A stretch of DNA of 64,000 nt from Minisyncoccota bacterium. Its GTDB lineage: Bacteria > Patescibacteriota > Minisyncoccia > Phycocordibacterales > Phycocordibacteraceae. Shown one piece after another: positions 1 to 45,697 of the stretch. The stretch spans positions 35,505-99,504 of the forward strand of contig JBAYLD010000002.1 in NCBI GenBank assembly GCA_041664265.1, written 5' to 3'. The stretch's first letter is position 1. The number at the start of each line of letters is the position of its first letter. Made by a program: the position numbers and the translations under genes. Below the pieces are notes generated by a model. That model searched no databases. It saw only the letters and a list, made by a program, of their open reading frames with translations, and was not told the origin of the DNA.

Positions 1-87
1 CTTTGTATCTTCGCCACTGCTCATTTATTTATCAGTCGGATCAGCCATACAAGTACCTAGTTAATCTAGCAGATACCCCAGAAATCG

Positions 88-1299: not shown

Positions 1300-1350
1300 G
1301 TCTGGGATTATACCACCTCACCCCGCCCTGCAACCCCGCTGTGTAAAAAT

Positions 1351-1373
1351 TCCGTAAGGTGACACCTTACGGA
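1351..1373. repeat. palindrome TCCGTAAGGTGACACCTTACGGA (family B copy) overlapping 3' end of downstream ORF
   Basis: perfect inverted repeat; same GGTGACACC/CCGTAAGG core recurs at 18014-18056 and 60282-60328. Confidence 0.7.
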
Positions 1374-2401: not shown

Positions 2402-2405
2402 TCAC

Positions 2406-4154: not shown

Positions 4155-4216
4155 ATGACCAAAGTATCGTGCCCTGGCATTTTACGCAATGCAAAATAAA
4201 GCGTATATTGCGCATA

Positions 4217-7034: not shown

Positions 7035-7552
7035 GGCGTGGTTTTGAAATACGCGACCACGGATGCGCCGGTGTCAAAATCGACGTAGACGCTATTGACG
7101 GCGAAATCAAAGGTACCGTTTCCGTCATCGCGATACAGTTCAACGGCATATGATCGGCCCGGCTCGGTCGCCCGCAGAAGCTGCACAGGCACGGAGCTAC
7201 GAGGGCCATCTACGCGCGCGGCGCCAAGCACGTTCCCGAGGTTGCCGCTGGTTACCTCGCGCACGGCGACCCAGACACCCGGTGGCGGCACCGTGATCGA
7301 CTCGACCATAACCACGCTACCGGAGGATTGGTCTGCCACGGATACTGCGCCGCTCTTTTCTGTACCAAGGTTGGCGTCTTGTGTGCCGGAAAGAGGAGAG
7401 TCTGCTCCCCGCTGGTCGATAGGCAAAACAGGGAGAGAGAAGTTGCCGCTGAGGAAATAGGAGCCCGCGAGCAAGGCGCCGAGCATGATTCCGGCAACGA
7501 AGGAACCGACCGAGAAGCCGAAGGTACTGGTAGAGAAAGTGTTGCGCGTCAT
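7031..7552 (-). CDS. hypothetical membrane-anchored protein
   Basis: 173-aa ORF, N-terminal TM helix; 4-nt overlaps with both neighbours. Confidence 0.45.
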   Translation of the reverse strand: MTRNTFSTSTFGFSVGSFVAGIMLGALLAGSYFLSGNFSLPVLPIDQRGADSPLSGTQDANLGTEKSGAVSVADQSSGSVVMVESITVPPPGVWVAVREVTSGNLGNVLGAARVDGPRSSVPVQLLRATEPGRSYAVELYRDDGNGTFDFAVNSVYVDFDTGASVVAYFKTTP

Positions 7553-8418
7553 AGAGAAGAGCTGTTGTCCGCAGCACCAGGGAGCTCAAGGAGCCCATCG
7601 GCCTCTGCGAGGAGTTCGCCGATCCTCTCAGGTGACAAATGCAGCACGTCAAGTGCACGACGATCTTTCATAATAGTGTCGACCGCGATCACTCCCTGTT
7701 CGATAAGGAGCCGCTTCTCGGCGTGGGAAATACCGGTCAAGGTGGTGATCGGATACACTTTCGCGCGGCTCATGCGCATGAAGAGGCTGTTATCCGTCGG
7801 ATAGCCCCATCCGAGGAGTTCGACGCCCGCGCATTCGCCATACGCGATGGCTTCAGAGGTGAACTTAGTGTTCGTCACCAAGAGTCCACGGTCGATTGGA
7901 CACACGCGAGCTCCCTCGTTGCAGGAAAAAATGTCCTCGAAGCGGCTCTTCACATACAGGGCGACTTTCAGGTCAGTCTTGTAACTCGGGTCGTTATGAT
8001 ACTTCAACTCGGCGGCGAGATGGACGCCTTGTTCCGGATGCGATGCGTAGAGATCGATCTCGTGCATCACGCATCTTCCTTGCAGCAATTTGCGTGTCTC
8101 GACCTGCCATCCTTCTGCGCGATAGAGGTGTGAGACGAAGTCTTCAAATGGGTGACCGGTAGGCCCGAGCTCAAGAAGCGCACGTCGGAGCGCATAGCGG
8201 GCAGCGATCGGACGAGCCTCTTTGCGCAAGAGTGCGAAGGCGCGTGCATAAATCTCTCGCGAGGGAGCTCCCGGCACGACGGTGCTCGTGATTGCCTCGG
8301 CTATGCGTGCCGCGGTGTGTTCGCCTGCTCCTGCTCGTTTCAGAGAGATACCGAGGCGCACAGGATCAAAGATCTCGCTCGACCCATCGGCCTTAACGAT
8401 AGTTGGGAGAGGCGTCAT
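7549..8418 (-). CDS. ATP-cone domain fused to Mrr-like restriction-endonuclease (PD-(D/E)xK) domain
   Basis: IVKADGSSEIFDPVRLGISLKRAG ATP-cone start; HEIDLYA...AELKYH catalytic D...ExK; GLLVTNTKFTSEA Mrr C-terminal motif; start at MTPLPTIVK gives 4-nt overlap with upstream gene. Confidence 0.55.
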   Translation of the reverse strand: MTPLPTIVKADGSSEIFDPVRLGISLKRAGAGEHTAARIAEAITSTVVPGAPSREIYARAFALLRKEARPIAARYALRRALLELGPTGHPFEDFVSHLYRAEGWQVETRKLLQGRCVMHEIDLYASHPEQGVHLAAELKYHNDPSYKTDLKVALYVKSRFEDIFSCNEGARVCPIDRGLLVTNTKFTSEAIAYGECAGVELLGWGYPTDNSLFMRMSRAKVYPITTLTGISHAEKRLLIEQGVIAVDTIMKDRRALDVLHLSPERIGELLAEADGLLELPGAADNSSSL

Positions 8419-8825: not shown

Positions 8826-9802
8826 GCGACAATAATACCACCACCGGCCAACTCGCCGCTATGACTTGCTTCGCCGGAAGCGCTGACGCGAGGCGAGTAA
8901 AAAACGATCGACTGGCCGGGCGCAGGGATATCGGGCAGCGACTGTGCGGGGATGAAGCAATCCCCTTCAACCCTTCCTTGTATGTGCGGACCGCGATAAC
9001 GGTACTGAGCCTCGGTGACGCGCGCCGACGCGGCAAACCAATTTGCATCGGTGAAGGAGATCTCATGCATCGGCGCGGATCGCGTCCTTGCGGTTCTGAT
9101 CTCTTTTTTTTCAACGTCCTTCCCGATTACATACCACACGTCATTCGATCCTTCTTTTCCGATGCGTTGGCCGATAGTGTACAAAAGCGCCGGGTTAGCA
9201 CTCCCCAATTCACGCAATAAAAATTCTTTGATGGAGACCGCACCGAGGAAGCAGACGCCCTGGCTGTCTTTCTTCTCTGCGACCGGCAGGTTGAATTTTT
9301 TTGCGAGCTTGCGTACGTCTTCTTTCTTCATGTTCCCTACCGGAAACAGTGTTGCGTCCACTATATCCTTGGGCACGGCCCAGAGGAAGTAGCTCTGGTC
9401 CTTTTCGCCCGCGCGATAATGCCCCATCGCGATCGCATCAGCGCCGGCATCCATCGCGAAGCGATAACATGCGCCGAACTTTACCTCCTTATTGCACATC
9501 ACATCGGGATTTGGTGTCCGACCGGAGCGATATTCTTCGAGCAGATATTCAACAACGCTTTTTTTATACTCCGCACTTGCGTCAAAAGTAAGGAATGGGA
9601 TCCGGAGCCGCGCCGCCACCCGCATCGCATCGCGGCGCTCTGTGGCCCAGGTACACGGCATCCCAGGCGGATACCAGCCTTTGATAAACACGCCTGTCAC
9701 GCGTGCGCCAGCCCTCTGCAAGAGCGCGGCAGACACCGCGGAGTCCACGCCTCCAGACAGGCCAACAAACACTTTTTTCCCGCGCACCTCTTTCATCTCC
9801 AT
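8822..9802 (-). CDS. mnmA: tRNA-specific 2-thiouridylase MnmA
   Basis: VFVGLSGGVDSAVSA PP-loop; FIKGWYP; CNKEVKFG; 326 aa. Confidence 0.85.
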   Translation of the reverse strand: MEMKEVRGKKVFVGLSGGVDSAVSAALLQRAGARVTGVFIKGWYPPGMPCTWATERRDAMRVAARLRIPFLTFDASAEYKKSVVEYLLEEYRSGRTPNPDVMCNKEVKFGACYRFAMDAGADAIAMGHYRAGEKDQSYFLWAVPKDIVDATLFPVGNMKKEDVRKLAKKFNLPVAEKKDSQGVCFLGAVSIKEFLLRELGSANPALLYTIGQRIGKEGSNDVWYVIGKDVEKKEIRTARTRSAPMHEISFTDANWFAASARVTEAQYRYRGPHIQGRVEGDCFIPAQSLPDIPAPGQSIVFYSPRVSASGEASHSGELAGGGIIVA

Positions 9803-11292: not shown

Positions 11293-12671
11293 TACACCGG
11301 CAGGTTAACAGGTGCTTCGCTCGTTGCCGACTGGATGCGCCCGAGGCTCGGTGTCTCGATCGCACGCGACGGGATATGGAAGATCGTCGCGAGCTCCTCG
11401 GTGCTCATCACCATCGCCTTGTCGGGGTGGAAGCCGAAGGTAAACGGCGGATGGAAGTATTGGCGGCGGCGATACGCTTCTACGAGCGCGGTGCGGATTT
11501 TATTTTTTAATTTATCGGTGCCGATCTCCCAAGGATAATCATCAAACTGCATCATCCAGCTGCCGGCACCCGCCTTGATCCCATTCCACCCTTCTGAAGA
11601 GAATTGTTTGAAGATATTCATGAGGGCAAAGAGATTTACCACTCTGAATTTCTGGTCTGCGTTGACGAGATATATGCCGCGTATGCCGACATCAAAGGCG
11701 GGTTTGGTGACATTGCGCTCAATGGCGGCGATTTTCTCCATCTGACCCTTGGTCGGGTTGGGGAACCCAGGGACCTCCTTCCCCGATACAGGATCGGTAT
11801 ACGGCATACGTGTCTCCTCCCGCATTTTCTTCACAAGATCCTTTGCCTCATCCTTCCAATCAAAGGGCTTTCCATTATCTTTTAATTTGTGATACTTCTC
11901 GCCCTTATGCACACGGATCATAATCTGGAGCCACAACTGTTCACCCTTGCCCATTGAGCCCATAAACTCAATAAGGTTGGCGAGCGGGTCGGTCTGCTCC
12001 TCCTCCTTTTGTATCTTGTCCAAGCCGTATTCAACATAGGTTTTGATCGGGAGCGGGTCAGGGTCGGTATGGATGAAGTCACACCCCCAGATTCCTGAGC
12101 CCCATTTCTCAAGACTTAAATCAGCAAATCGCGTGTAGTCGGGTGCTTCAGTTATCTGTATGCTCGGATACTGCGCATAGAGCTGAGTCTCAATGACGGA
12201 GCGAAAGAATGTCCGCGTCCAGATGAAGAAGTGCACCTGACCCTCTATAGAGGCGATCTCAAGCGACCACCAGGGGCGCACTCCCCCTTTGATCCAACGA
12301 ACATACCAGGTACCCTCGCCCGGAGAGAGATGGATACCCGAGAAGAAAGTCTCCATCGCAAGCGGCGTCTTGATAAGGTTGCGCGGCGGTTTGATCTCAA
12401 GGAGTATCATCTCTTGTGCTGCGATAAACTCTGATCGCCGCCACGCGATCCAGAGCCCCCACGCGCCGCCGAGGAGCAGAGCTGGTAGCCACAAGGGCGC
12501 GATAAAGAGCGCGAGCGAGAGCGCGAGTGAGACCACTTTGGGCATGAAGATGAACGAGACCAGCAGGATCATCGCCCCGAGGATGAGGATCGGCCACTCC
12601 GGAAGGCGGAAGCCGGATTGCGCGGTGGACTTGCTCGTTAACTTTTCAAGTTTGTCTAAGAACGGAAGCAT
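11292..12671 (-). CDS. hypothetical membrane protein (two N-terminal TM helices + ~380-aa soluble domain), function unknown
   Basis: 459 aa; no ATPase or enzymatic motifs recognised. Confidence 0.45.
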   Translation of the reverse strand: MLPFLDKLEKLTSKSTAQSGFRLPEWPILILGAMILLVSFIFMPKVVSLALSLALFIAPLWLPALLLGGAWGLWIAWRRSEFIAAQEMILLEIKPPRNLIKTPLAMETFFSGIHLSPGEGTWYVRWIKGGVRPWWSLEIASIEGQVHFFIWTRTFFRSVIETQLYAQYPSIQITEAPDYTRFADLSLEKWGSGIWGCDFIHTDPDPLPIKTYVEYGLDKIQKEEEQTDPLANLIEFMGSMGKGEQLWLQIMIRVHKGEKYHKLKDNGKPFDWKDEAKDLVKKMREETRMPYTDPVSGKEVPGFPNPTKGQMEKIAAIERNVTKPAFDVGIRGIYLVNADQKFRVVNLFALMNIFKQFSSEGWNGIKAGAGSWMMQFDDYPWEIGTDKLKNKIRTALVEAYRRRQYFHPPFTFGFHPDKAMVMSTEELATIFHIPSRAIETPSLGRIQSATSEAPVNLPV

Positions 12672-12717: not shown

Positions 12718-13788
12718 TTATACTGCCGCGTAGCGGCCGTCTTTCATCCGTTTGAAGTAGCGCGAATCGTTCAAATTCACCAAGATGGTGTTGTCCTTCA
12801 CAAAACGAGCTTTCTTGACGTGCTTGATGATCTCGTCTTTCTTCATCGGGCCTTTCTCCTCAAGCGTCTCGCGAATAACGTCGCGCACAACGCCCGGCGT
12901 ATAGCCCCACTCGGTGAGCGCGTAGAGTCCGCGGCCGACGAGTACGAAACGAGGATCCTTGATGAGCTCGTTGTGCGTTGTCGCGACGTGCGCCTTCTTG
13001 GAGAAGAGGTTGCTGATCGCCTTCGAGACTTCAGAGAAGTGCATCGGAGCGCCGTGGCGCTTGATAGCGAGATAGGCGTAATCGCGGATGCCCTTGATAC
13101 GGATGGCAGGTGCGCTCATCTTGCCCCACTGGGCAAGCGGGTTCCTGCCGATATGCTTAGAGAGCGAGAGCCAGCGCTTCAAGACCTCCTCGTTCTTGTA
13201 GGCGTCGTTGACCGACTTGAGCTCATCAAGAAAGCGATCGAGGATCTCGGCTTCAGAGACGACCTCGTCATCCGGGAGCGACGCATACAGCTTCGAGAGC
13301 GCGTCATGGATATGTTTTGCGGCCGTGGCATCGACATGCCAGCGCGCGAGGAAGTCGTTTGTCTCGCGCTCGCGGAAGAACGCCGAGTCAACCATGAGGA
13401 GGAAGCGGAATCGGTTGCGGCTCTTCTCATCCTTCCCGAGTGCGGAAAGAAGCGTTTCTTCGGGCACGATGGCGCCGAGCGAGTCAATGTAGCGTGCGAG
13501 ATCCTCAAACGCTCCCTGCGATTCTTTAAAAATCTTGCTCGCGCGAATCGCGTCGAGTCCGGCAGCCTCGATCTGGCGCACGCGCTCGCGGGTGATGCTC
13601 GAGCGATCGCCGATCGCTTCAAGTGTCTCGCGTTCGGCGTTCGTGCCGAGGCCAAAACGGCGCACCAAAACGTCGCGCGCGCGTTCTGGAGCGGCGGCGA
13701 GGAGCCGCTTCACCAGCGCAGCGCTATCAAAGGAAAAGGAGGCTGCGGCAATAGCCGAAGATTTCCCGATCTTTTTAGTTTTGGTCAT
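12718..13788 (-). CDS. sigma-70 region-4-like HTH DNA-binding protein
   Basis: RARDVLVRRFGL...ETLEAIGDRSSITRERVRQIEAAGL is a sigma region 4 HTH; start taken at MTKTKKIG (alternative MKKMTK at 13797). Confidence 0.5.
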   Translation of the reverse strand: MTKTKKIGKSSAIAAASFSFDSAALVKRLLAAAPERARDVLVRRFGLGTNAERETLEAIGDRSSITRERVRQIEAAGLDAIRASKIFKESQGAFEDLARYIDSLGAIVPEETLLSALGKDEKSRNRFRFLLMVDSAFFRERETNDFLARWHVDATAAKHIHDALSKLYASLPDDEVVSEAEILDRFLDELKSVNDAYKNEEVLKRWLSLSKHIGRNPLAQWGKMSAPAIRIKGIRDYAYLAIKRHGAPMHFSEVSKAISNLFSKKAHVATTHNELIKDPRFVLVGRGLYALTEWGYTPGVVRDVIRETLEEKGPMKKDEIIKHVKKARFVKDNTILVNLNDSRYFKRMKDGRYAAV

Positions 13789-17875: not shown

Positions 17876-18013
17876 TTCAATTCCCTCCTTCCTTTTCTCG
17901 TTAGTAGTTAGTACATCCGGCGCTTAGCATACCGGATCTAATATATCCGTCAACTATCCAAAACAGAATGCGGTCGCATCATGTTGTGGATACCTGTTGC
18001 GAGCGTTTGAGAC

Positions 18014-18056
18014 CGCGAGGTGACACCTTACGGTTGCCGTAAGGTGTCACCTCGCG
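18014..18056. repeat. 43-bp family-B palindrome just downstream of ychF (terminator-like)
   Basis: CGCGAGGTGACACCTTACGG-TTG-CCGTAAGGTGTCACCTCGCG; same sequence occurs in frame in uvrC at 60282-60328. Confidence 0.75.
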
Positions 18057-25239: not shown

Positions 25240-25283
25240 CTAGGCAGTATACACCTCGGTTCTTCGAGCAGAAACGAAGAATA

Positions 25284-25769
25284 TTATAGCGTTTCCTTCA
25301 GCGCCAACGCCCGTTCAATATAGCGTTCGCCATCCTCTCCCCAATCAAAATATTGCTTGATGTCTTTCGGGTCTATGAGTTTTATTTCGGTAACATCGCC
25401 GTCGGGATCTGAGACGAATTCCCCTATCGGTTCAACAATACAGACGGAACGGGTTTGTAGGGTTCGATCCGGCTCGAAGGCCTCCAAATAACCAAAAACC
25501 TTTTGCTTTAGGACGCGCATATTTGTCTCTTCAAACACCTCGCGCACAACTGCTTCTTCAAAGGTTTCGCGGGGTTCTACTCCACCTCCGGGCGGTCCCC
25601 AGGATTTTTTCTCTTCAGCGTACACAACAACGAGCTTGTCGCCACAAAAACAATAGGCGTGTACTCCCTTTATTTTTTCTCCATTCAGCTCTTCAGGCGA
25701 ATCAATATCGCGGTACACAAATGGTATGGTTTGTTTGTCGCGGTTGGTTAGTGTTGAGTGAATTTCCAT
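25284..25769 (-). CDS. NUDIX hydrolase (paralog of 45200-45697)
   Basis: GPPGGGVEPRETFEEAVVREVFEETN Nudix box; ~75% identical to second copy. Confidence 0.75.
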   Translation of the reverse strand: MEIHSTLTNRDKQTIPFVYRDIDSPEELNGEKIKGVHAYCFCGDKLVVVYAEEKKSWGPPGGGVEPRETFEEAVVREVFEETNMRVLKQKVFGYLEAFEPDRTLQTRSVCIVEPIGEFVSDPDGDVTEIKLIDPKDIKQYFDWGEDGERYIERALALKETL

Positions 25770-28983: not shown

Positions 28984-29898
28984 ATGTGTTCTTTGAAAGT
29001 TCTGAAGATTGATCTCATCAACCGTTGTAACGCAGCTTGTCCCTTCTGCCCGTATCACGCCGCACGAGTGCATCAAGCACCGCTCTCGCGATTGTCTATA
29101 ACCGACGTGCAAGGAATCGTTCTCGGTTGCAGGCGATTGGGGATCACCCCCCAGTTTAAATTCTCGGGGCGAGGCGAGGCGACGGTCCATCCGGATTTTC
29201 CTGAGATGGTACGACTCGCTAGTGCAGAAGGGTTCCAGACAAGACTCATCACCAACGGCCTTCTGCTCCGTACGCACGCTTCGGTACTCGCCGAGTGCGG
29301 TACCGACGTCGTCGTATCGATCCACGGCAATGAAGCAACTCATGATGCGGTGATCGGTAAGCGCGGAGCGCTCTGCCTCGCGGAGGCCGGTATCGAAGCA
29401 GTGGCGGCTCGCGGTGCATCAGTGACCGTCGGGATCATCCTCACGCCGGATACCATCGAGGATCTGGAGGAGATCGGAGCACGCTATGCATCTCAAGAAA
29501 AAGTGCGCGTGCGCGTTCATCACAACTTCGACACGCACGTTCGAGAGTCGCTGTCACCGCACGCGGTACAAGCGGCACTTGCCCGACTCAAAGAGCGGTT
29601 TCCGAACATCCGTACCGTTCCCCATGTACCTGAAGAGTTGTTGGATCGTTATTACAGCACGAACGGGTTCGTACTCCAGCCGCACGCTTGTACGCATTTT
29701 ATCGAGGAGGTAGAGATCTCTTCTGACGGTATGGTGAGCGTGTGCGGAGCCGCTCCCTTCGGCAACATACGCAACGAGCCGTTCGAGCATCTTGTAGCAA
29801 GCAACTCACGCACGTCCTTTATGGCGACTATCGCAGGCGAGCTGCGATCTGCCGATGGGCTCGCAGCGACGCGCTGCGATCGCTGCTGCTACCAGTAA
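28984..29898 (+). CDS. radical SAM protein with C-terminal Cys-rich auxiliary-cluster domain
   Basis: CNAACPFCPY CxxxCxxC; C-terminal Cys cluster ending CDRCCYQ; RBS AAAGGAGG. Confidence 0.75.
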   Translation: MCSLKVLKIDLINRCNAACPFCPYHAARVHQAPLSRLSITDVQGIVLGCRRLGITPQFKFSGRGEATVHPDFPEMVRLASAEGFQTRLITNGLLLRTHASVLAECGTDVVVSIHGNEATHDAVIGKRGALCLAEAGIEAVAARGASVTVGIILTPDTIEDLEEIGARYASQEKVRVRVHHNFDTHVRESLSPHAVQAALARLKERFPNIRTVPHVPEELLDRYYSTNGFVLQPHACTHFIEEVEISSDGMVSVCGAAPFGNIRNEPFEHLVASNSRTSFMATIAGELRSADGLAATRCDRCCYQ

Positions 29899-29900
29899 CC

Positions 29901-29938
29901 ACACTTCCCCGCGCACCACGGGGAAGTGTTTTTCGTTT
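29901..29938 (+). terminator. rho-independent terminator
   Basis: ACACTTCCCC-GCGCACCAC-GGGGAAGTGT then TTTTTCGTTT. Confidence 0.75.
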
Positions 29939-29966
29939 GACGCGTGCGCACCTTCCTCGTACTGTA
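29938..29966 (+). promoter_or_regulatory. candidate promoter TTGACG-N17-TACTGT for rel-like gene
   Basis: located between terminator and ATG at 29975. Confidence 0.35.
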
Positions 29967-29974
29967 TCTACTAT

Positions 29975-31042
29975 ATGAGCAGCGGCACGTACACAGAAGC
30001 TGATATCGAGAGACTCATACCCCCGCGAGTCAGCGTCGATCCTACCGCCGTCACCTGCATCAAACAAGCATGGGCATTCGCACAAAGGGTGCATGCCGGG
30101 CAACGCCGCCGTTCGGGCGAGCCGTATACTGAACACCTTTTTCAAACAACGAAGATGCTTGGCGCGCTCGACATGGGCGCACCGACACTCATCGCAGGTA
30201 TCCTGCACGACACGCTTGAAGACACGCAAACGTGCGAGGCGGATCTCGCCGAAGCCTTTGGGACTGATGTCGCCTTCCTCGTTGCTGGCCTGACAAAATT
30301 GAAGCGGGAGAAATCAAAACAAGGACGGCACGAAGGGACGCCCTATTATGCAAACAATTTGCGCAAGCTCCTTCTCGCAGCAGCACAGGATGTGCGGATC
30401 CTTATCATCAAGCTCTGCGACCGGCTGCACAATATGCAAACGCTCTCTCATATGCCTGCCGAAACACAAAAGCGCGTCTCACTCGAGACGCGCAATGTGT
30501 ATGTGCCGGTTGCTGAACGGCTCGGCATGCATACCATCAAGCGAGAACTTGAGGATCTGGCCTTTGCCTATCTTGAGCCGGACTCGTTTAAAAAGGCTTG
30601 TCGTCTCTTCAAGAAGTGTAAATCGGAACACGAAATAAGCATCATCGAGGCGACCGCCACGCTCCAATTAGAGCAGGCGATACACGCACGCATACCCTTC
30701 CGTATCGAACAGCGAGACAAAGGCATTTGCAGTTTTTATCAGAAACTTGAACGGAAGGAATGGGAACTTTCACAGATAAACGACATCATCACGCTGCAGG
30801 TCATCGTCCCTAACGCCGATGATTGCTATATCATGCTCGGGAAGATTCACGGCCTCTGGCATCCTATTCATGGCAAGTTTAAAGACTATATCGCCTTCCC
30901 CAAGCCAAACGGATTCCAATGTCTGCGTACGACAGTCGGTGCGGAATCGTTGGGTATTCTCGAAATACAGATTTATTCAGACGATATGTATGAACGCGCG
31001 AAGTACGGATTCGCGGTTCTCCTCGCCCGCAACGAATACTAA
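29975..31042 (+). CDS. small RelA/SpoT-family (p)ppGpp hydrolase/synthetase (HD + synthetase domains, no TGS/ACT)
   Basis: HD motif ILHDTLEDT; synthetase motif KDYIAFPKPNGFQCLRTTV; start at MSSGTYTE. Confidence 0.65.
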   Translation: MSSGTYTEADIERLIPPRVSVDPTAVTCIKQAWAFAQRVHAGQRRRSGEPYTEHLFQTTKMLGALDMGAPTLIAGILHDTLEDTQTCEADLAEAFGTDVAFLVAGLTKLKREKSKQGRHEGTPYYANNLRKLLLAAAQDVRILIIKLCDRLHNMQTLSHMPAETQKRVSLETRNVYVPVAERLGMHTIKRELEDLAFAYLEPDSFKKACRLFKKCKSEHEISIIEATATLQLEQAIHARIPFRIEQRDKGICSFYQKLERKEWELSQINDIITLQVIVPNADDCYIMLGKIHGLWHPIHGKFKDYIAFPKPNGFQCLRTTVGAESLGILEIQIYSDDMYERAKYGFAVLLARNEY

Positions 31043-31046
31043 CGTT

Positions 31047-31238
31047 TCAGCTCGTGGGCAACTCAACAAAGAAGGTTGACCCCTTATCTCTCCCCTCTGA
31101 CTCGGCGCGGATCGTGCCGCCATGCGCCTCGGCGATCTGCTTCGCGATATAGAGGCCGTCATCGCGAGCGCCGAGAGATGCTTTATGCTCATAGTATATG
31201 CTATATTTCCGCATATATGACTGAAGTTCTGTTCGCAA
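31047..31238 (-). pseudogene. chimeric fragment carrying duplicated last 32 codons of the histidine kinase gene
   Basis: C-terminal [31 protein letters not shown] identical to HK 32072-33727. Confidence 0.5.
31063..31159. repeat. 97-bp direct repeat copy 1 (HK 3' end)
   Basis: matches 32088-32184 with one mismatch (31079 c / 32104 g). Confidence 0.85.
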
Positions 31239-31771
31239 TTGGCATGTCTATTATCTTTATATTCAGTCTCTTCGCTTTATTGTTTACGCTTTTGAGACTC
31301 AGAGATTCTCTTTTTGTAGAAATCCCATTTATTTCAACACGAAGACGGGCTGTTGAATCAGTGGTAAACGCTCTTTCTCTCTCAGACAAATCAGTACTTT
31401 ATGATCTTGGCTGTGGCAATGCCGAGGTTCTTAAAACGGCAATACAAAAAACGCCTAGAGCGCGGGGTGTTGGTATTGAACAAGGCTATATTCCTTTCAT
31501 TCTTTCAAAGGTCAAAACGAGAAAAATGCCAATTATTATTCACCACCAAGACATATTTGATACTGACCTATCCAATGCGTCGCACATTTATTGCTATTTG
31601 TCAGATTCAATGATGCAAAAACTATCGCACAAGTTTTTGCATGAATGTAAGAAAGGAGCGCGTATCGTTTCTTGCGATTTTCAGGTACCCAACATACCAC
31701 TAATTCAAACTATTTCGTTAGAAGCCAAGAATGATACACTGGCCCGTTCTCTATACATTTATCAGATATAA
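31217..31771 (+). CDS. membrane-anchored class I SAM-dependent methyltransferase
   Basis: TM helix [20 protein letters not shown] then motif [13 protein letters not shown]; start uncertain (alternative 31178). Confidence 0.5.
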
Positions 31772-31774
31772 AGT

Positions 31775-31803
31775 AACAGCCACACTTGGTTGCGTGTGGC
31801 TGT
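31775..31803. terminator. bidirectional hairpin between convergent genes
   Basis: AACAGCCACAC-TTGGTTGC-GTGTGGCTGTT. Confidence 0.55.
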
Positions 31804-31813
31804 TAATGAGCTG

Positions 31814-31987
31814 TTATTCACTATCTACATAACCTATGTTTTTCATGTGTCTACCCTCACATGCAGGACATATCCCACCGTCTGGGTCACATTCCTCGCA
31901 ATGAACACAGCCACAATCCCTGCACACCCAAATCCTCGCACTATCTTCGTTATTGCCACACCTTGGACACCGATCGAATGTCGCCAT
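31814..31987 (-). CDS. small zinc-ribbon protein with four CxxC pairs
   Basis: MATFDRCPRCG...CRDCGCVHCEECDPDGGICPACEG; RBS GGGAGGAAAG upstream of ATG. Confidence 0.5.
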   Translation of the reverse strand: MATFDRCPRCGNNEDSARIWVCRDCGCVHCEECDPDGGICPACEGRHMKNIGYVDSE

Positions 31988-32071
31988 TTTCTTTCCTCCC
32001 ATTTCAAAATTGTTAAAACAACACACAAACCCTCTAACACTATCTACTTACAGTATAACATGTCCGCCCTG

Positions 32072-33727
32072 TTATACAACAGGAAATTCAACAAAGAAGG
32101 TTGAGCCCTTATCTCTCCCCTCTGACTCGGCGCGGATCGTGCCGCCATGCGCCTCGGCGATCTGCTTCGCGATATAGAGGCCGTAGCCCGTAGAGTGGAC
32201 GTTTACCCGCTGCGAATCCTTACCGTGCCCGCCCTCGGTGAAGAGGTGCTTCTTGTCGTCTTCATCGATCCCGATGCCGGTATCCTTCACCGCAAACACA
32301 AGCTTGCCGTCATCGCGCTTGAGTGAGACGGCGATAGAGCCTGACGACGTGTAATTGATCGAGTTGTCAATAATATTGCGTAGCACGTGGTCGCTCAACT
32401 GCGCTTTATCCCCCGTCATCTGATACGAAGCACCATCGGCAACAAACGTGAGTGTGAGTCCCTTCCGCTCTGCGGCCGCCCTCGCCTTCTCGACTGCCTC
32501 TCTCGCGAGCGCTTCCAGATCAAACGGCTCCTTCACATACGTCACAGCGCCCTTCTTCAAGTTTGACGCTTTGAGGATGTTGGACACCGAATCAGCGCCC
32601 TGGCGCGACTCGATGAGTGCTTGATCCACAAATGGCTTCATCCCGTCTGGCGGCGTGCCAAAATCTCCCTGCGAGATCGCGGCGAACGCTCCCGCATCCT
32701 TCGTCAAGAATCCCTTAACCTCGTGCCCAATGAAGTGCAGCAGCCCCTCCTGTCGCTCGTTGGTGTCTTGGAGCTCTTCTGCAAGCTTTTGGATCTTCTC
32801 ACGCTGAGCAATCTCGCGCTTAACACCGCGCACCAACAAAATGCCGGCGATAAGCACGAAAATGAGGGTTACCGAGGTGATAATTCGAACATCCTCAACC
32901 GTGCGTATAAAGAGGAGTGAGAGTACCGAGAGCCAGAACGCTGCCACTAATGCTTGTGCGCCAATCAAGCGCACGTTGAAAGCTCGATACTGCACGATAA
33001 GGTAGGCGAGGAACGCAACAAATACAGGCGCCCCGAAGAGTCCGTATCTTCCTATAGACCAATCTTGAGAGAACACTTCGACAATGTTCCCGATAGAAAA
33101 ACTGAGTAAAAATAAAACGATACCGACCGCGAGCAGAGCAGTTCGCTTTTTTACTACAGATTCTTTTGCCTTTATTAAGACAAAGATGGCGAAACCGATA
33201 ATGAGCAGCGTATATAGAATTTCTATTGCGTATCCGTACGTTGCAAGTATTCCTTCAGAGGCCGCGCGATCACAATTCGATATGTCATATCCCAACAAAC
33301 CAAGTCTCGTTGAAGCGAAAACAAATGTCGGTAAAAGTGGGAAGAGAAAAAGAATCTTTTGTAAGACTGAAAGATCTTTTTTAAAGACATATACATAAAA
33401 GAAGTAGAACGAGAAGAAATATACGAGTGGTTCACACACTATCTCCAGAGCCCAAAAGAACATTGTGTAAGAAGGAAATTCCGTCGCCCAAAGTACCAAG
33501 TCACTAAAAACCCAGAGCGAAAAGAAGATTGAGGTAAGCAATAGAAGGATACTCGAAAATTCCTTCCGGCCATAGATAAAGATAAAGAGCGCGATTAGTA
33601 GTGTCGGGATGATCGAACCAAGGTGTGAGTAATAAATAAAAGACTCAAAGACGTTGTCCGAAAATACGAGAAATTGGGATGGCGCCCATTCGCACGCTTG
33701 TATGAGGTTGAAGACTTCGGGTGTCAT
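32072..33727 (-). CDS. sensor histidine kinase with polytopic N-terminal membrane domain
   Basis: H-box LLHFIGHEVKGF; HATPase_c G-boxes [16 protein letters not shown]. Confidence 0.8.
   Translation of the reverse strand: MTPEVFNLIQACEWAPSQFLVFSDNVFESFIYYSHLGSIIPTLLIALFIFIYGRKEFSSILLLLTSIFFSLWVFSDLVLWATEFPSYTMFFWALEIVCEPLVYFFSFYFFYVYVFKKDLSVLQKILFLFPLLPTFVFASTRLGLLGYDISNCDRAASEGILATYGYAIEILYTLLIIGFAIFVLIKAKESVVKKRTALLAVGIVLFLLSFSIGNIVEVFSQDWSIGRYGLFGAPVFVAFLAYLIVQYRAFNVRLIGAQALVAAFWLSVLSLLFIRTVEDVRIITSVTLIFVLIAGILLVRGVKREIAQREKIQKLAEELQDTNERQEGLLHFIGHEVKGFLTKDAGAFAAISQGDFGTPPDGMKPFVDQALIESRQGADSVSNILKASNLKKGAVTYVKEPFDLEALAREAVEKARAAAERKGLTLTFVADGASYQMTGDKAQLSDHVLRNIIDNSINYTSSGSIAVSLKRDDGKLVFAVKDTGIGIDEDDKKHLFTEGGHGKDSQRVNVHSTGYGLYIAKQIAEAHGGTIRAESEGRDKGSTFFVEFPVV
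32088..32184. repeat. 97-bp direct repeat copy 2 (native 3' end of HK gene)
   Basis: see 31063-31159. Confidence 0.85.
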
Positions 33728-33894
33728 AGTTGGGAGTATGCAGAAGGATCAAACTGGTCAGGAATCTCATCTTCAGTCTGAAAATAGGTGAAATCCTGCC
33801 GCACCATATATCGGTAATAAGCCGCACCAACAGAGAGCCCTACAAGCACAAAAAGAACCACTGTGTAGATAATGCTCGATCTGCCTATTTGCAT
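33724..33894 (-). CDS. 56-aa single-TM protein, stop overlaps HK start (ATGA)
   Basis: MQIGRSSIIYTVVLFVLVGLSVGAAYYRYMVRQDF...; own TGGTATACT -10 at 33904-33912; not in ORF track (<60 aa). Confidence 0.4.
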   Translation of the reverse strand: MQIGRSSIIYTVVLFVLVGLSVGAAYYRYMVRQDFTYFQTEDEIPDQFDPSAYSQL

Positions 33895-35466: not shown

Positions 35467-37026
35467 ATGTCAGCAAAAACAATAGCACTGGTTACACCGC
35501 GCACCTTGTCACACCGAACCGCCGAAGAAACCCTGGCCCTGGGATATCTTGCCAGCGTCTTACGTGAAAACGGCTATTTGGTCACTATCGTGGATGGCTG
35601 GCTTCGCGGCATCAGCTCGTCTGAAATCGTCAACATCATCGCCAAAGATGTCCCGGACATCATCTGCATGTCCAGCTACCGTTCGAACCTCGAACAAGCA
35701 AAGGAACTTCTTGGAGCCATAACCGGAAGATTTGGGAACATCCCCACAATATGTGGCGGATATGGCCCAACCTTCCATGACAAAGATTTCTTAGACGCTG
35801 GATTCTCCGTGGTTGTTCGTGGTGAAGCGGAGCACATGATTGTGTCTCTTATTGACGAAATTGTATCGCACCGCAGTTTGTCCAGTGTCCCTGGAATTAC
35901 CTTCAATAATTGCAATGCCACAATTCGCACAAAACGCGTCGAGTCGATTCGAAACATCGACTCAATACCGTTCCCTGCACGCGATGAAATCGGATTTGCA
36001 ATCAAAAGGAAAAACCCAGTCCACGTTTGTACCTCTCGTGGTTGCGAAGCTCATTGTTCATTCTGTTCAATCTTTGCATTCGCGAGTGGTGCTTCTAAAA
36101 TGCACCGCTGGCGAGGGAGAGTAGTTCAGAACATCATTGATGAACTTCGCTACTTGTACGAGGAATTCGGCGTCACCCATATTAAATTTGTGGATGACAG
36201 TTTTCTCGAACCCCCACGAGATAGTCACTGGGTTGCTGAGTTCGTGGAGGCATTGTTGAGACATAATCTACCGTTGCGTTTTAGAACGCAGGTTCGTGCC
36301 GACAGACTCAACGATGATATCGTTAGAGGTTTGAAACAGGCCGGATGGTTCGCGACAAGTGTCGGGATAGAGAATGCCTCAGCATCCGCTCTCAAGCGAA
36401 TGGGGAAAACATCCTCGTCAGAGGATAATTGGAAGGCTCTGGAATTGCTACGCCGACACGGGATCTATGTGCAGATGGGAATGATTCTCTTTGACGATGC
36501 AACAACTATCGACGAACTTGAGACAAATTACCGCTTTCTTGTGCATCACGATTGGGTTGTCACAAAAGGGATCTTCTCGGAGATGTTTGCTGCGACGGGA
36601 ACGCTCTACACCGAGAGATTGTCTCGCGACGGACTTCTTGTGACCAACAAAGAACAAAACCACAGTTACCTAGTGAGGGACATTCGAGCAATGCGTGTGT
36701 ATCAAATGCTTAAGGCATGGCACAAATCACACGCGAGTCTTTATGACTGGGTCATTGACCCAATCACGGCTCCCAAGGTATTGCCGGATGAGGGTTATGT
36801 CTGTGTTCATGAAATCTGTAAGGAAATTATTACCTGTGACACACAAATGTTCCGCCGCGTTCTCGACCACGTGACATCTAGTGCGCCTGAAAGTGACGTT
36901 GATGTTGTAACATCCGCAATAACTGAGCAATCCCGTTTCTACGCTTGCATACAGTCGCAGATACAAGAGATTTACGATTGTTATGATCTCGTGTATGACG
37001 GGGTTCCAAACCAGTTCCTAAATTGA
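35467..37026 (+). CDS. B12-binding (class B) radical SAM enzyme
   Basis: N-terminal cobalamin-binding Rossmann region; CEAHCSFCS CxxxCxxC; 519 aa. Confidence 0.8.
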   Translation: MSAKTIALVTPRTLSHRTAEETLALGYLASVLRENGYLVTIVDGWLRGISSSEIVNIIAKDVPDIICMSSYRSNLEQAKELLGAITGRFGNIPTICGGYGPTFHDKDFLDAGFSVVVRGEAEHMIVSLIDEIVSHRSLSSVPGITFNNCNATIRTKRVESIRNIDSIPFPARDEIGFAIKRKNPVHVCTSRGCEAHCSFCSIFAFASGASKMHRWRGRVVQNIIDELRYLYEEFGVTHIKFVDDSFLEPPRDSHWVAEFVEALLRHNLPLRFRTQVRADRLNDDIVRGLKQAGWFATSVGIENASASALKRMGKTSSSEDNWKALELLRRHGIYVQMGMILFDDATTIDELETNYRFLVHHDWVVTKGIFSEMFAATGTLYTERLSRDGLLVTNKEQNHSYLVRDIRAMRVYQMLKAWHKSHASLYDWVIDPITAPKVLPDEGYVCVHEICKEIITCDTQMFRRVLDHVTSSAPESDVDVVTSAITEQSRFYACIQSQIQEIYDCYDLVYDGVPNQFLN

Positions 37027-37039
37027 AGGAGGTATTGAA

Positions 37040-38176
37040 GTGAAAATAGAAAATATAGGATGGACACTCGGAAACGATTGTCCATATAGATGTATACATT
37101 GTTACTCAACCATTGTCCGAAACAAGGGACGGAATCTGACGGTGCGGGACATCGAACGTATTGTCGGGCAAATTGCCTCTGTGAACGTGCGAACGGTAAA
37201 CCTTGGAGGAAATGAGCCAATCTTCACGAACGGCCTTAGCCTGAAAGACACCCTCCTGCCACACGTCGTCCGGTCTCTGTATGACGCGCACGTCATGGTT
37301 GGCCTCACGACGGCAGGAATTAGTTTGAACCATTTGGAACGGTTCTACCCAGAATCACTCTCGTTCCTTAACGACGTGGATGTTAGCCTAGATAGCCCCT
37401 TCTTCGAAGAGCATAACGCTAATCGTGGGGCACTACTCTTCAACCATGCACTCAAGGCATTGAGGATTTGTAACGAGTACGGAATCAACAAAACGATCGT
37501 GATGTGCGGAATGAATTGGAATTTGAGCAATCGACACATTGATGAACTAGTTCGGCTAGCGCGAAAATTTCGTGCTTTCATCAGAATAAATTTCATCAAG
37601 CCGACCGAGCCAGAACACATGGAGAAAGTACCTGACGCTACGACATATTACCGTGCGACAAACCGACTGCTCTCACAGTGCCATTCAGTCGAGATAGATG
37701 AGCCTTTGATTGCAGTCGCCGCAAATCTGCCTCACAAGAAGGGCTGTCCGTGTGGTTCGAAATCATTTCGGATTCACTCGATTACCCCTGACGGTACTGT
37801 GCCAGTTAGTCCATGCGTATTCGCGCATGATTACAAGGTCGGTGACATTCTTGTTGACGAACTCATCGATATTGTCGCTTTCGAGCAGTTCCGAGCTTTC
37901 ATTGACCGGTGTGCGAAACCAAGTTCCATCGAAGGGTGCCAGGACTGCCAGCACATTGAAACCTGCCGTGGGGGATGTGCGTCTCGCGCTTACCTCACCG
38001 AGAAGTTCAAAACTGGTAAAATTAATCTTCTTGTGCGTGACCCATATTGTATTCGGGATATGGAAAAAAATGGTTCGAAAAAGCCAACGATCAATAGTGT
38101 CGAGGAATTGTCACAACAAGGACTAACACTCGTGCATCGAGACTATCTTTGTACCATTATCGCAAAACCGAAATAG
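37040..38176 (+). CDS. radical SAM enzyme with C-terminal SPASM domain
   Basis: CPYRCIHCY CxxxCxxC; C-terminal Cys clusters GCPCGS...CQDCQHIETCRGGC; GTG start with RBS GGAGG. Confidence 0.8.
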   Translation: MKIENIGWTLGNDCPYRCIHCYSTIVRNKGRNLTVRDIERIVGQIASVNVRTVNLGGNEPIFTNGLSLKDTLLPHVVRSLYDAHVMVGLTTAGISLNHLERFYPESLSFLNDVDVSLDSPFFEEHNANRGALLFNHALKALRICNEYGINKTIVMCGMNWNLSNRHIDELVRLARKFRAFIRINFIKPTEPEHMEKVPDATTYYRATNRLLSQCHSVEIDEPLIAVAANLPHKKGCPCGSKSFRIHSITPDGTVPVSPCVFAHDYKVGDILVDELIDIVAFEQFRAFIDRCAKPSSIEGCQDCQHIETCRGGCASRAYLTEKFKTGKINLLVRDPYCIRDMEKNGSKKPTINSVEELSQQGLTLVHRDYLCTIIAKPK

Positions 38177-45104: not shown

Positions 45105-45199
45105 AACTAATTTTTAGTAAACAATGGTGACTGCCTCCTTTTTTCCTGTCCCCTTTTTCCCAGTAACAACGTATTGTCCCACTACTTTTCCAATAATGT

Positions 45200-45697
45200 T
45201 CATAACGTCTCTTTTAGCAAAAGCGCACGCTCAAGCTGAGCATCACCACTCTCGCCCCAGTCAAAATACTTTTTCGCATCTTGCGGGTCAATGAGCTTTA
45301 TTTCTGTAACATCGCCATCAGGATCTGAAATGAATTCGCCTATCGGTTCAACGATGCACACCGAGCGAGCGCCCAGAGTCCGTTCTGGTTCTAAAATTTC
45401 CATATACCCGATCGCCTGTTGCTTCAGGACGCGCATATTCGTCTCTTCAAATACTTCGCGCACAACGGCTTCTTCAATCGTCTCACCAGGTTCTATTCCT
45501 CCCCCGGGTGGTCCCCAACTCCCCTTATTTTCTGCATACACAATGACGAGTTTATCACCGCAGAAGCAGAATCCATGCACCCCCTTCACTTTGGTTCCCT
45601 TCAGTTCATCAAATGCATCAAGATCACGATAGATAAAGGGTATCGTCTGCCCACTCGTGCGACTAACAAACGTCGAGCAGATTTCTTTGTGTGACAT
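45200..45697 (-). CDS. NUDIX hydrolase (paralog of 25284-25769)
   Basis: GPPGGGIEPGETIEEAVVREVFEETN. Confidence 0.75.
   Translation of the reverse strand: MSHKEICSTFVSRTSGQTIPFIYRDLDAFDELKGTKVKGVHGFCFCGDKLVIVYAENKGSWGPPGGGIEPGETIEEAVVREVFEETNMRVLKQQAIGYMEILEPERTLGARSVCIVEPIGEFISDPDGDVTEIKLIDPQDAKKYFDWGESGDAQLERALLLKETL

What the first reader, a model, noticed from the sequence alone, without database searches (positions are those of the whole stretch)
31063..32184. 928-bp cassette flanked by 97-bp direct repeats that duplicate the 3' end of the histidine kinase gene
The HK 3' terminus (last about 28 codons, stop and 12 nt beyond) is present twice, at 31063-31159 and 32088-32184, with one mismatch. 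Between the copies lie a membrane-anchored SAM methyltransferase gene and an eight-Cys zinc-ribbon gene with a shared hairpin terminator. The upstream copy forms a chimeric 63-aa pseudo-ORF. Reconstituting the target gene 3' end with long direct repeats is typical of site-specific integration of genomic islets at gene 3' ends, but no integrase is present, so this may be a remnant or a tandem duplication.
Basis: seen in the sequence. Interest (0 to 1): 0.65.

Follow-up and report, generated by a model that had tools for sequence, protein, structure and literature searches.

The report
Gene cassette inserted in kinase gene's tail
A two-gene cassette sits between two copies of the last ~100 bases of a sensor-kinase gene in an uncultured groundwater-type bacterium, and related genomes show that this gene end repeatedly collects foreign genes with no integrase nearby.

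Summary
Positions 31063-31159 and 32088-32184 are a 97-nt direct repeat with one mismatch, flanking a 928-bp, lower-GC module. One detail is wrong: the repeat lies wholly inside coding sequence. Each copy has its own last four codons and stop (kinase-attached ...VEFPVV*, displaced ...VELPTS*).

The organism is a Candidatus Paceibacterota (CPR) bacterium. The architecture recurs in at least 9 of about 28 related kinase loci and in three kinase families. There the kinase gene is followed by one to three co-oriented partial tails separating unrelated cassettes (toxin-antitoxin pairs, hydrolases, methyltransferases). None of these cassettes encodes a recombinase.

Differences between tail copies fall mostly at third codon positions (26/15/86), so the copies come from different working kinase genes. 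One sister-strain pair gives an empty and an occupied site. The foreign tract there runs from inside the kinase end, through a 5.8-kb island, to the middle of the distal tail, and the flanks are at most 0.2% divergent.

Best reading: 3'-end displacement by homologous recombination, with the conserved tail serving as the homology arm. This resembles rhs C-terminal displacement. An integrase acting in trans is not excluded. I rate it a new variant of a known kind.

The parts
32072..33727 (-). Intact sensor histidine kinase gene (551 aa), the target of the insertion.
   Evidence: ORF. HATPase_c match at E 5.8e-24 covers residues 446-550, profile positions 7-109 of 111. Orthologues in Paceibacterota/Kaiserbacteria.
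32088..32184 (-). Proximal (kinase-attached) copy of the 97-nt repeat, T1. It encodes residues about 516-547.
32072..32087 (-). Kinase end supplied with the cassette: the last base of the E547 codon, then F-P-V-V and the stop. It is not part of the repeat.
   Evidence: Read from the sequence. Homology between the two copies decays here.
31814..31987 (-). 57-aa eight-Cys (four CxxC-type pairs) zinc-ribbon-like protein gene, co-oriented with the kinase. Cassette cargo.
   Evidence: ORF. 96% aa identity to the partner gene in L021. No Pfam, NCBIfam or PADLOC family at threshold.
31774..31805 (.). Hairpin with a 12-bp stem between the convergent cassette genes, probably a shared terminator.
   Evidence: The stem is kept through changes on both sides in L109 and L021 (alignment, read by eye).
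31217..31771 (+). 184-aa class I SAM methyltransferase with a hydrophobic N-terminus. Cassette cargo.
   Evidence: Weak DOT1 match. Resembles the archaeal protein-lysine methyltransferase model NF041081 at E 3e-14, below the curated cutoff. Homologues at 36-78% identity in other CPR contigs.
31160..31216 (.). Junction between the cassette and the displaced tail, upstream of the methyltransferase gene. Positions 31160-31183 are GC-rich and may be a scrap of another kinase tail (unproven).
   Evidence: Homology to L109/L021 starts only at about 31190. An 11-nt match, TCTCTCGGCGC, to ESLGA-type tails was seen by eye.
31063..31159 (-). Distal (displaced) copy of the 97-nt repeat, T2.
31047..31062 (-). 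Separate kinase end (L-P-T-S and stop) attached to the displaced copy. Its stop lies 4 nt from the RelA/SpoT-like stop codon.
   Evidence: An ELPT- ending also occurs in the closest orthologues P0017, P0018 and P0031.
31047..31238 (-). 63-aa chimeric pseudo-ORF made of cassette-edge sequence plus the displaced kinase tail.
   Evidence: Weak HATPase_c match covering profile positions 76-109 only. Gene callers annotate a 55-aa product.
29855..31042 (+). RelA/SpoT-like gene (HD_4 plus RelA_SpoT domains), the convergent neighbour on the far side of the insertion.
33724..33894 (-). 56-aa ORF overlapping the kinase start. A 56-aa ORF occupies the same position in related loci, marking the conserved upstream side.
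   Evidence: A 56-aa gene sits directly upstream of the kinase in L105, L106 and L107.

Best explanation
The cassette entered by recombination inside the conserved last ~100-160 bases of the kinase gene.

Incoming DNA from another Paceibacterota lineage carried, in order:
1. a kinase 3' end;
2. the zinc-ribbon and methyltransferase genes;
3. a partial kinase tail.

Homologous exchange between these tails and the resident tail attached the incoming end (...VEFPVV*) to the kinase. It pushed the resident end (...VELPTS*) 1,025 bp downstream, where it survives as a dead fragment next to the original neighbour.

The conserved tail therefore serves as the homology arm on both sides. Cassettes flanked by tails can be passed between genomes, stacked into arrays, or lost again by recombination between the direct repeats, all without an integrase of their own.

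Shown:
- the anatomy in the window;
- its recurrence in related genomes;
- the co-orientation of all displaced tails;
- the coding-type divergence between tail copies;
- one empty/occupied pair whose foreign tract begins and ends inside tail sequence.

Inferred:
- that the window's event followed the same route;
- that DNA arrived by uptake or transformation;
- how the first partial tail downstream of any cassette arose (illegitimate joining or a circular intermediate).
For: 1. Recurrence. Extra co-oriented partial tails lie downstream of the kinase in L004 (2, plus one weak), L007, L033/L059, L036 (2), L105, L107 and L108. The same holds for two other kinase families in L023/L054. That is about 9-10 of about 28 distinct loci with at least 1.3 kb of downstream sequence.

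2. Polarity. All 13 or more fragments are downstream and on the kinase strand. None were found in 222 kb of upstream sequence or on the other strand. Random placement would give P of about 2e-9.

3. Cargo. Cassettes are unrelated to one another: AbiEii+DUF6922, HicA with a HicB-like partner, PemK, alpha/beta hydrolase, CYTH, methyltransferases, a glycosyltransferase, an S66 peptidase and others. No recombinase was found among those scanned. The AbiEii cassette is tail-flanked in two genomes, L033 and L004.

4. Divergence pattern. Differences between attached and displaced tails fall 26/15/86 on codon positions 1/2/3, with 74 synonymous and 31 non-synonymous codon changes (chi-square P of about 1e-15). 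The copies therefore evolved as working genes in different lineages.

5. Empty versus occupied site. L108 is empty and L105 is occupied.
- The flanks differ by 0.18% and 0.09%.
- T1 diverges from L108 position 3272 onward.
- T2 diverges only over 3274-3392.
- The foreign tract is therefore tail-island-tail, with two exchange points about 120 nt or more apart.
- L108 is not a T1 x T2 recombinant.

6. Conserved versus variable side. The upstream side (SET gene, then a 56-aa ORF where one is called, then the kinase) is conserved. The downstream side differs in every relative.

7. Independent module. The methyltransferase/zinc-ribbon pair exists as a module in other contexts without kinase tails (L021, L109).

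8. Not kinase-specific. A 200-nt duplication (199/200 identical) of the 3' end of a uridine-kinase-like gene flanks a 2.6-kb insert in L036.
Against: - No empty-site relative of the window itself was found; the closest kinase is 75-76% identical. The window's route is therefore inferred by analogy.
- The 5' limits of displaced tails cluster at codons 24-26, 30 and 36-38 of the last 63, with unrelated cassettes upstream. Independent illegitimate events do not obviously predict this, and it could hint at preferred cut sites.
- Recent events share an identical block around GGCACCATCCGCGCCGAG. This could be a recombinase core as easily as the longest stretch of identity.
- How the first tail-cassette-tail unit forms is unexplained.
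- Whole genomes could not be searched for recombinases acting in trans.
Confidence: 0.6

Rival explanations
1. Site-specific integration by a recombinase encoded elsewhere in the genome. The kinase tail would be the attachment site, and the cassettes would be integrase-less, cis-mobilisable islets or integron-like cassettes that excise as circles and re-insert.
For: - Direct repeats rebuild the target gene end, and arrays form with the newest unit next to the kinase.
- All well-preserved displaced tails that are not cut by a contig end keep the segment around ATCCGNGCCGAG through to the stop.
- The right-hand exchange in L105 maps next to this segment.
- The 5' limits of the tails fall into a few classes.
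Against: - No recombinase was found within about 56 kb of the window or in any cassette scanned.
- In L105/L108 the two exchange points are about 120 nt or more apart.
- The tail has no consistent hairpin or attC-like fold; the window copy gives z-scores of +0.4 and +0.9.
- No peak of synonymous-site constraint is unique to the putative core.
- A similar duplication occurs at a non-kinase gene with unrelated sequence.
- No viral contig carries a kinase tail.
Confidence: 0.2
2. The distal copy is the remnant of a tandemly duplicated second kinase gene whose body was later deleted or replaced by the cassette.
For: Tandem full-length kinase paralogues do exist in a relative (L029/L030, two complete kinase ends 1,785 nt apart).
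Against: - It needs two events.
- The window copies are 96/97 identical with sharp limits.
- In L105/L108 the island is plainly an insertion relative to a near-identical strain.
- Arrays of three to four tails with unrelated cargo would need repeated duplication and replacement.
Confidence: 0.07
3. A long target-site duplication produced when foreign DNA was ligated into a staggered double-strand break, or by an unknown transposition-like event.
For: The two most recent cases are almost perfect duplications: the window at 96/97, and the L036 uridine-kinase-like gene at 199/200.
Against: - The attached copy ends differently from the displaced one (FPVV* versus LPTS*), so it is not a plain copy of resident sequence.
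- Older pairs differ mainly at synonymous sites.
- There are no terminal inverted repeats at the cassette ends and no transposase.
- To my knowledge (not tested here), no transposon family makes 80-200-nt duplications.
Confidence: 0.05
4. Assembly artefact that duplicated the kinase end.
For: Metagenome assemblies can mis-join at repeats. L059 is a loop contig ending in the repeat on both sides, with a 54-nt terminal overlap.
Against: - Two assemblies give the same structure.
- The repeat (97 nt) is shorter than the k of 141 suggested by the contig name.
- The copies differ by one base and have different continuations.
- The same architecture appears in many independent assemblies.
Confidence: 0.02

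Closest known systems
C-terminal displacement in rhs genes, with the related orphan cdiA-CT/cdiI and T6SS effector-immunity arrays (Jackson et al. 2009, PMC2935791; Kirchberger et al. 2017, PMC5361080)
   Same: - A full-length gene is followed by co-oriented orphan pieces, each starting with a fragment of the conserved part of the gene.
- New units sit next to the gene and older ones are pushed downstream.
- No integrase is involved.
- The cited authors propose homologous recombination, through a circular intermediate or with one illegitimate end.
   Different: - The conserved 'core' here is the extreme 3' end of a sensor kinase, not a toxin scaffold.
- What is swapped in the protein is only 4-8 terminal codons.
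- The payload is whole independent genes in either orientation, with their own regulatory signals, not a toxin tip plus its immunity gene.
- The hosts are CPR bacteria.
Integrase-less islets flanked by att repeats at a gene 3' end. Examples from my own knowledge: cis-mobilisable elements derived from ICESt-type elements at fda, and tRNA-fragment-flanked island arrays in Prochlorococcus.
   Same: - Direct repeats duplicate the 3' end of the target gene.
- Units accrete in tandem.
- The islets themselves carry no recombinase.
   Different: - Those systems depend on a known integrase with a fixed crossover core, supplied by a related autonomous element.
- No autonomous element or integrase was found here.
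- The exchange points in the one informative pair are not at a single position.
Integron cassette arrays, including clusters of attC sites that lack an integrase
   Same: - Small cassettes of 0.5-5 kb are separated by a repeated element of about 100 nt.
- Toxin-antitoxin genes are common cargo.
- The newest cassette lies closest to the entry point.
   Different: - The repeat is coding sequence with no attC-type fold.
- Cassettes are in either orientation and often hold several genes.
- There is no IntI gene and no attI site.
Homology-facilitated illegitimate recombination after natural transformation, and 'minimal mobile elements' exchanged between conserved flanking genes (from my own knowledge, and as cited in PMC5361080)
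   Same: A conserved stretch anchors foreign DNA. Cassettes are exchanged by ordinary recombination without mobile-element machinery.
   Different: As I recall them, those events delete or replace recipient DNA and do not leave a duplicated anchor. Here the anchor is duplicated and then reused as the second arm.

Membership tests
Integrase-mediated integrative element or genomic islet at a gene 3' end | Flanking direct repeats that rebuild the 3' end of the target gene. | tested here: met
   A 97-nt repeat; the kinase ORF stays intact through to HATPase_c profile position 109 of 111.
Integrase-mediated integrative element or genomic islet at a gene 3' end | A tyrosine or serine recombinase gene in the element or next to it. 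| tested here: not met
   The cassette holds only a methyltransferase and a zinc-ribbon protein. No recombinase family was found among called genes over window positions about 1.3-57.7 kb, nor in the cassettes scanned in relatives.
Integrase-mediated integrative element or genomic islet at a gene 3' end | Crossover at one fixed short core shared by attL and attR. | tested here: inconclusive
   In L105/L108 the foreign tract starts at or before position 3272 on one side and ends at about 3392 on the other. Only one informative pair was available.
Integrase-mediated integrative element or genomic islet at a gene 3' end | A cognate integrase elsewhere in the same genome. | not testable with these tools
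   Only a 126-kb contig of the genome is accessible, and only the window and its flanks could be read.
Integron cassette array or attC cluster | Repeats fold as imperfect attC hairpins. | tested here: not met
   The window repeat gives z-scores of +0.41 and +0.90 on its two strands. There is no consistent structure across four loci.
Integron cassette array or attC cluster | An IntI integrase and attI site at the head of the array. | tested here: not met
   The head of the array is the kinase gene. Its upstream neighbours are a 56-aa ORF and an Hsp70-like or SET-domain gene.
C-terminal displacement arrays (rhs, CDI, T6SS type) | A full-length gene followed by co-oriented orphan fragments that start with a piece of the conserved region. 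| tested here: met
   Seen in the window and in L004, L007, L033, L036, L105, L107, L108 and L023/L054. All fragments are downstream and co-oriented.
C-terminal displacement arrays (rhs, CDI, T6SS type) | The swapped 3' part encodes a variable toxin domain with a cognate immunity gene. | tested here: not met
   Only 4-8 terminal codons differ between copies. The cargo genes are separate and varied.
C-terminal displacement arrays (rhs, CDI, T6SS type) | Gain and loss by homologous recombination in the conserved region. | tested here: met
   The L105/L108 mismatch map shows near-identical flanks and a foreign tract bounded inside tail sequence on both sides. Differences between copies are of the coding type.
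Transposon with target-site duplication | Terminal inverted repeats, a transposase, and a short identical duplication. | tested here: not met
   No inverted repeats at 31160 or 32087, no transposase, and a 97-nt duplication whose two copies end differently.

The most novel reading that the evidence does not exclude
The kinase tail is the recombination site of an unrecognised cassette-capture system in CPR bacteria, comparable in function to an integron. A recombinase acting in trans would excise and insert tail-bearing cassette circles at the 3' end of sensor-kinase genes. This would build arrays enriched in toxin-antitoxin and modification genes in lineages otherwise poor in mobile elements.
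Probability: 0.12. Interest if true: 0.85.

Novelty: new variant of a known kind. Interest (0 to 1): 0.6.

Why it matters
From my own knowledge, CPR/Patescibacteria genomes are small and carry few recognisable mobile elements, so how they gain accessory genes is poorly understood. Here the conserved 3' end of a sensor-kinase gene marks a recurrent entry point. Toxin-antitoxin pairs and small enzyme modules are added there, stacked and exchanged between lineages, apparently by recombination alone.

If this holds, two things follow. First, displaced gene tails could be used as sequence tags to find flexible regions and recent gene flow in uncultured bacteria. Second, the 'displacement array' logic known from polymorphic toxin genes would extend to an ordinary housekeeping-type gene.

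For annotation, short 'HATPase_c' ORFs such as 31047-31238 should be read as displaced gene ends, not as genes.

Tried and rejected
- Viral origin. Scans of viral contigs with the tail alignment, the methyltransferase and the zinc-ribbon protein found no relatives.
- attC-like or hairpin recombination site. Folding both strands of four tails gave no consistent structure. Only ESLGA-type tails carry a local 9-10-bp palindrome.
- DNA-level constraint on a core. Synonymous-site entropy over 31 kinase ends is low around GGTIRA, but equally low at several other codons.
- Terminal inverted repeats at the cassette ends: none.
- RNA families in 30500-32700: only sub-threshold chance matches.
- Defence-system models for the cassette proteins: none.
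- Circular cassette. L059 has a 54-nt terminal overlap, but both ends lie in the 74-nt identical block of the repeat. A de Bruijn loop explains it, so it is not evidence for a circle.
- Strain-level empty site for the window. The nearest kinases are only 75-76% identical and have different downstream genes.
- GC content as proof of foreign origin. The cassette is about 0.40 GC against about 0.55-0.60 nearby. However, the genome is patchy (0.41-0.60) and the kinase's own membrane-domain region is equally low, so this is weak evidence.
- The ELPT- ending as a marker of the resident copy. It is shared with the closest orthologues. In L105, though, that ending lies on the imported side, so it does not give reliable polarity.
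- Further empty/occupied pairs. An all-against-all comparison of the fetched loci found only L105/L108.
Full report
**Observation**

The window holds a direct repeat at 31063-31159 and 32088-32184: 97 nt with one mismatch (31080 C versus 32105 G). It extends to 103 nt at 97% identity. No other repeat of this kind occurs in the 64 kb.

The right-hand copy is the in-frame 3' part of a 551-aa histidine kinase gene on the minus strand (32072-33727). Its HATPase_c domain is complete to profile position 109 of 111.

The 928 bp between the copies hold three features:
- a 184-aa methyltransferase gene (31217-31771, +);
- a 57-aa eight-Cys protein gene (31814-31987, -);
- a hairpin with a 12-bp stem between them (31774-31805).

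The left-hand copy lies in a 63-aa ORF (31047-31238, -) that matches only the last third of HATPase_c.

The repeat does not include the stop codon or sequence beyond it. It covers residues about 516-547 (GLYIAKQ...STFFVE). After that the kinase reads FPVV-stop, while the other copy reads LPTS-stop, 4 nt from the stop of the convergent RelA/SpoT-like gene at 29855-31042.

**Not an artefact**

An ENA assembly and a JGI assembly carry the same arrangement and differ by one base in 12.5 kb. The contig name (k141_...) suggests a final k-mer longer than the repeat, though I did not verify this. The two copies differ by one base and continue differently.

**Organism and cassette**

Source names for the proteins, and the related genomes, place the contig in Candidatus Paceibacterota, close to Kaiserbacteria, within the CPR.

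The methyltransferase has a hydrophobic N-terminus. It resembles the archaeal protein-lysine methyltransferase model (E 3e-14, below the curated cutoff) and weakly resembles DOT1.

The methyltransferase and the zinc-ribbon protein form a conserved convergent pair in other contigs:
- L021 has them at 73% and 96% aa identity.
- L109 has the methyltransferase at 78% aa identity, with an aligned zinc-ribbon region.
- L023 has them at 41% and 51%.

The hairpin stem is kept through paired changes in L109 and L021. In L021 and L109 the pair is not next to a kinase tail, so the pair is a module that was captured here. I could not assign it a function; there are no defence-model or RNA-family matches.

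The cassette is lower in GC (about 0.40 against 0.55-0.60 nearby). The genome is patchy, however, so this is weak evidence.

**The same architecture recurs**

Kinase orthologues in species-representative genomes and metagenome contigs often carry extra partial kinase tails downstream, on the same strand, with unrelated genes between them.

| Locus | Tail copies | Cargo between them |
|---|---|---|
| L004 | 7508-7617, 9210-9319, 11807-11916, plus a decayed fourth near 12902-12934 | alpha/beta hydrolases; CYTH plus a HEAT-repeat methyltransferase; a DUF6922+AbiEii pair |
| L033/L059 | two copies | a homologous DUF6922+AbiEii pair |
| L036 | three copies | glycosyltransferase plus nucleotidyltransferase-DHQ-synthase; HicA with a HicB-like partner |
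| L007 | two copies | a 4.7-kb five-gene island |
| L107 | two copies | a 1.4-kb cassette |
| L023/L054 | two more distant kinase families, each with a displaced tail | PemK; ABC-ATPase plus radical-SAM/PqqD |

About 9-10 of about 28 distinct loci with at least 1.3 kb of downstream sequence show a displaced tail. All 13 or more fragments are downstream and co-oriented, and none lie in 222 kb of upstream sequence. None of the cassette proteins I scanned is a recombinase. No recombinase family appears among called genes across about 56 kb of the window.

The upstream side is conserved (SET gene, then a 56-aa ORF where one is called, then the kinase). The downstream side differs in every relative.

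**Where the copies come from**

Across 12 attached/displaced pairs, differences fall 26/15/86 on codon positions 1/2/3. There are 74 synonymous and 31 non-synonymous codon changes. Decay of a dead duplicate would spread changes evenly. The copies therefore diverged while they were parts of working kinase genes in different lineages, and each cassette brought a foreign kinase end with it.

**Empty and occupied site**

L108 and L105 are sister strains. L108 reads 203aa-SET-kinase-NUDIX-... L105 has the same flanks, but a 5.77-kb island lies between two copies of the last 157 nt of the kinase.

The mismatch map is sharp:
- The flanks differ by 0.18% (L108 positions 1-3271) and 0.09% (3393-4490).
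- The attached copy diverges from position 3272 onward: about 5% up to 3386, then about 34%.
- The distal copy diverges only over 3274-3392 (about 9%) and is identical afterwards.

The foreign tract therefore runs from inside the kinase end, through the island, to the middle of the distal tail. The two exchange points are about 120 nt or more apart. L108 is not a recombinant of the two L105 copies, because at several positions the L105 copies agree with each other and differ from L108.

This is what ordinary homologous recombination would give if it imported a pre-existing tail-island-tail unit. The distal tail would then serve as the right-hand homology arm. L108 also carries an older displaced tail further downstream (5672-5782), so new units are added next to the kinase.

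**Mechanism for the window**

By analogy, incoming DNA carried a kinase end (...VEFPVV*), the zinc-ribbon and methyltransferase genes, and a partial tail. It recombined with the resident tail, and the resident end (...VELPTS*) was displaced 1,025 bp. The single mismatch and the decay of identity after ...VE fit an exchange close to the 3' end of the tail.

The 97-nt direct repeats should also allow loss of the cassette by recombination between them.

I put 0.6 on this recombination-based reading. How the first partial tail downstream of a cassette arises is unexplained. An illegitimate join or a circular intermediate is possible, as proposed for rhs genes (PMC2935791) and T6SS arrays (PMC5361080).

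**Rivals**

*A recombinase acting in trans (0.2).* This remains possible.
- For it: the 5' limits of displaced tails cluster at codons 24-26, 30 and 36-38 of the last 63, with unrelated cassettes upstream. Recent events also share an identical block around GGCACCATCCGCGCCGAG.
- Against it: the exchange points in L105 are separated. The tail has no consistent fold and no unique synonymous-site constraint. No viral contig carries a tail. In L036 a 200-nt duplication (199/200) of the end of a uridine-kinase-like gene flanks a 2.6-kb insert, so the process is not tied to kinase sequence.

*The other rivals.* A decayed tandem kinase copy, a long target-site duplication and an assembly artefact are each unlikely, for the reasons listed under the rival explanations.

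**Comparison with known systems**

The closest analogue is C-terminal displacement in rhs genes and related toxin loci: a full gene, then co-oriented orphan pieces that each start with a fragment of the conserved region, with no integrase. The difference is that the conserved part here is the extreme end of a sensor kinase, only a few codons of protein change, and the payload is independent genes.

The architecture also resembles integrase-less islets flanked by att repeats, and integron arrays. It fails their defining tests: no recombinase, no attC fold, no fixed core. Four full-text searches of the held paper library found no description of this at kinase genes or in CPR bacteria.

**Verdict**

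The finding is real and is an insertion. The integrase-type interpretation is only partly right. It is one case of a recurrent, apparently recombination-driven cassette hot spot at the 3' end of kinase genes in Paceibacterota. I rate it a new variant of a known kind, with interest 0.6.

Noticed in passing
L036:1805-2004 and L036:4567-4766: A 200-nt direct repeat (199/200 identical) made of the last ~127 nt of a PRK/uridine-kinase-like gene plus 73 nt downstream. It flanks a 2.56-kb insert holding an alpha/beta-hydrolase-like gene and ORFs of unknown function, with no integrase. This is the same type of structure at a non-kinase gene.
   Followed up: partly
window 31160-31183: The GC-rich 24 nt between the cassette and the displaced tail read ...ASLGARDD in the kinase frame. 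They share an 11-nt match (TCTCTCGGCGC) with ESLGA-type kinase tails of other lineages. This may be a scrap of yet another tail joined out of register, or it may be chance.
   Followed up: partly
window 31814-31987 versus L021:2580-2753: The 57-aa eight-Cys protein is 96% identical between two contigs whose neighbouring methyltransferases are only 73% identical. That is unusually strong conservation for a small protein with no known family.
   Followed up: no
L004:8540-9322: The second kinase-tail copy is fused in frame to the end of an alpha/beta-hydrolase ORF (...KAHGGTIRVESEGQGKGSTFVVEFPA*). Its differences from the kinase's own tail are almost all synonymous.
   Followed up: no
L029/L030 (L030:9811-10117 and 11575-11902): Two complete kinase paralogues lie in tandem, with ends 1,785 nt apart. 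This arrangement could seed tail repeats.
   Followed up: partly
L033:1710-1730 and L007 tail: In tails that encode RAESLGA, the DNA forms a perfect 9-10-bp palindrome (CGCGCCGAG-TCT-CTCGGCGCG). It is absent from ESEG-type tails such as the window's.
   Followed up: partly
L026:3197-3255: An isolated 5' part of a kinase tail (NVH..GYGLYIAKQ) without the 3' part lies 2.7 kb downstream of the kinase, beyond an isoprenoid-type gene set. This is the opposite polarity of fragment from all the others.
   Followed up: no
window 28984-29898 and 35467-38176: Three radical-SAM genes (one with SPASM, one B12-binding, one with SPASM/Fer4_12) lie on either side of the RelA/SpoT-kinase-Hsp70-like block. They could belong to a peptide-modification cluster.
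   Followed up: no
window 60127-60157 and 63815-63845; 18013-18056 and 60284-60327: Short repeated hairpin-like elements (TGTGGGACTTCGGAAGTCCCACA) and a 44-nt inverted repeat at 95% identity lie far apart in the window.
   Followed up: no
window 25277-25733 and 45192-45649: A 72-74% identical direct repeat of about 460 nt, corresponding to two NUDIX-family paralogues.
   Followed up: no
L005:7079-7158 and 7224-7303: Two perfect 80-nt copies 145 nt apart lie just after a tRNA-Met gene, which itself directly follows the kinase gene in this relative.
   Followed up: no
L059 (1,107 nt): The contig has a 54-nt terminal overlap and consists of the AbiEii cassette plus one tail. It looks circular, but a de Bruijn loop at the 74-nt identical block of the repeat explains it.
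   Followed up: yes
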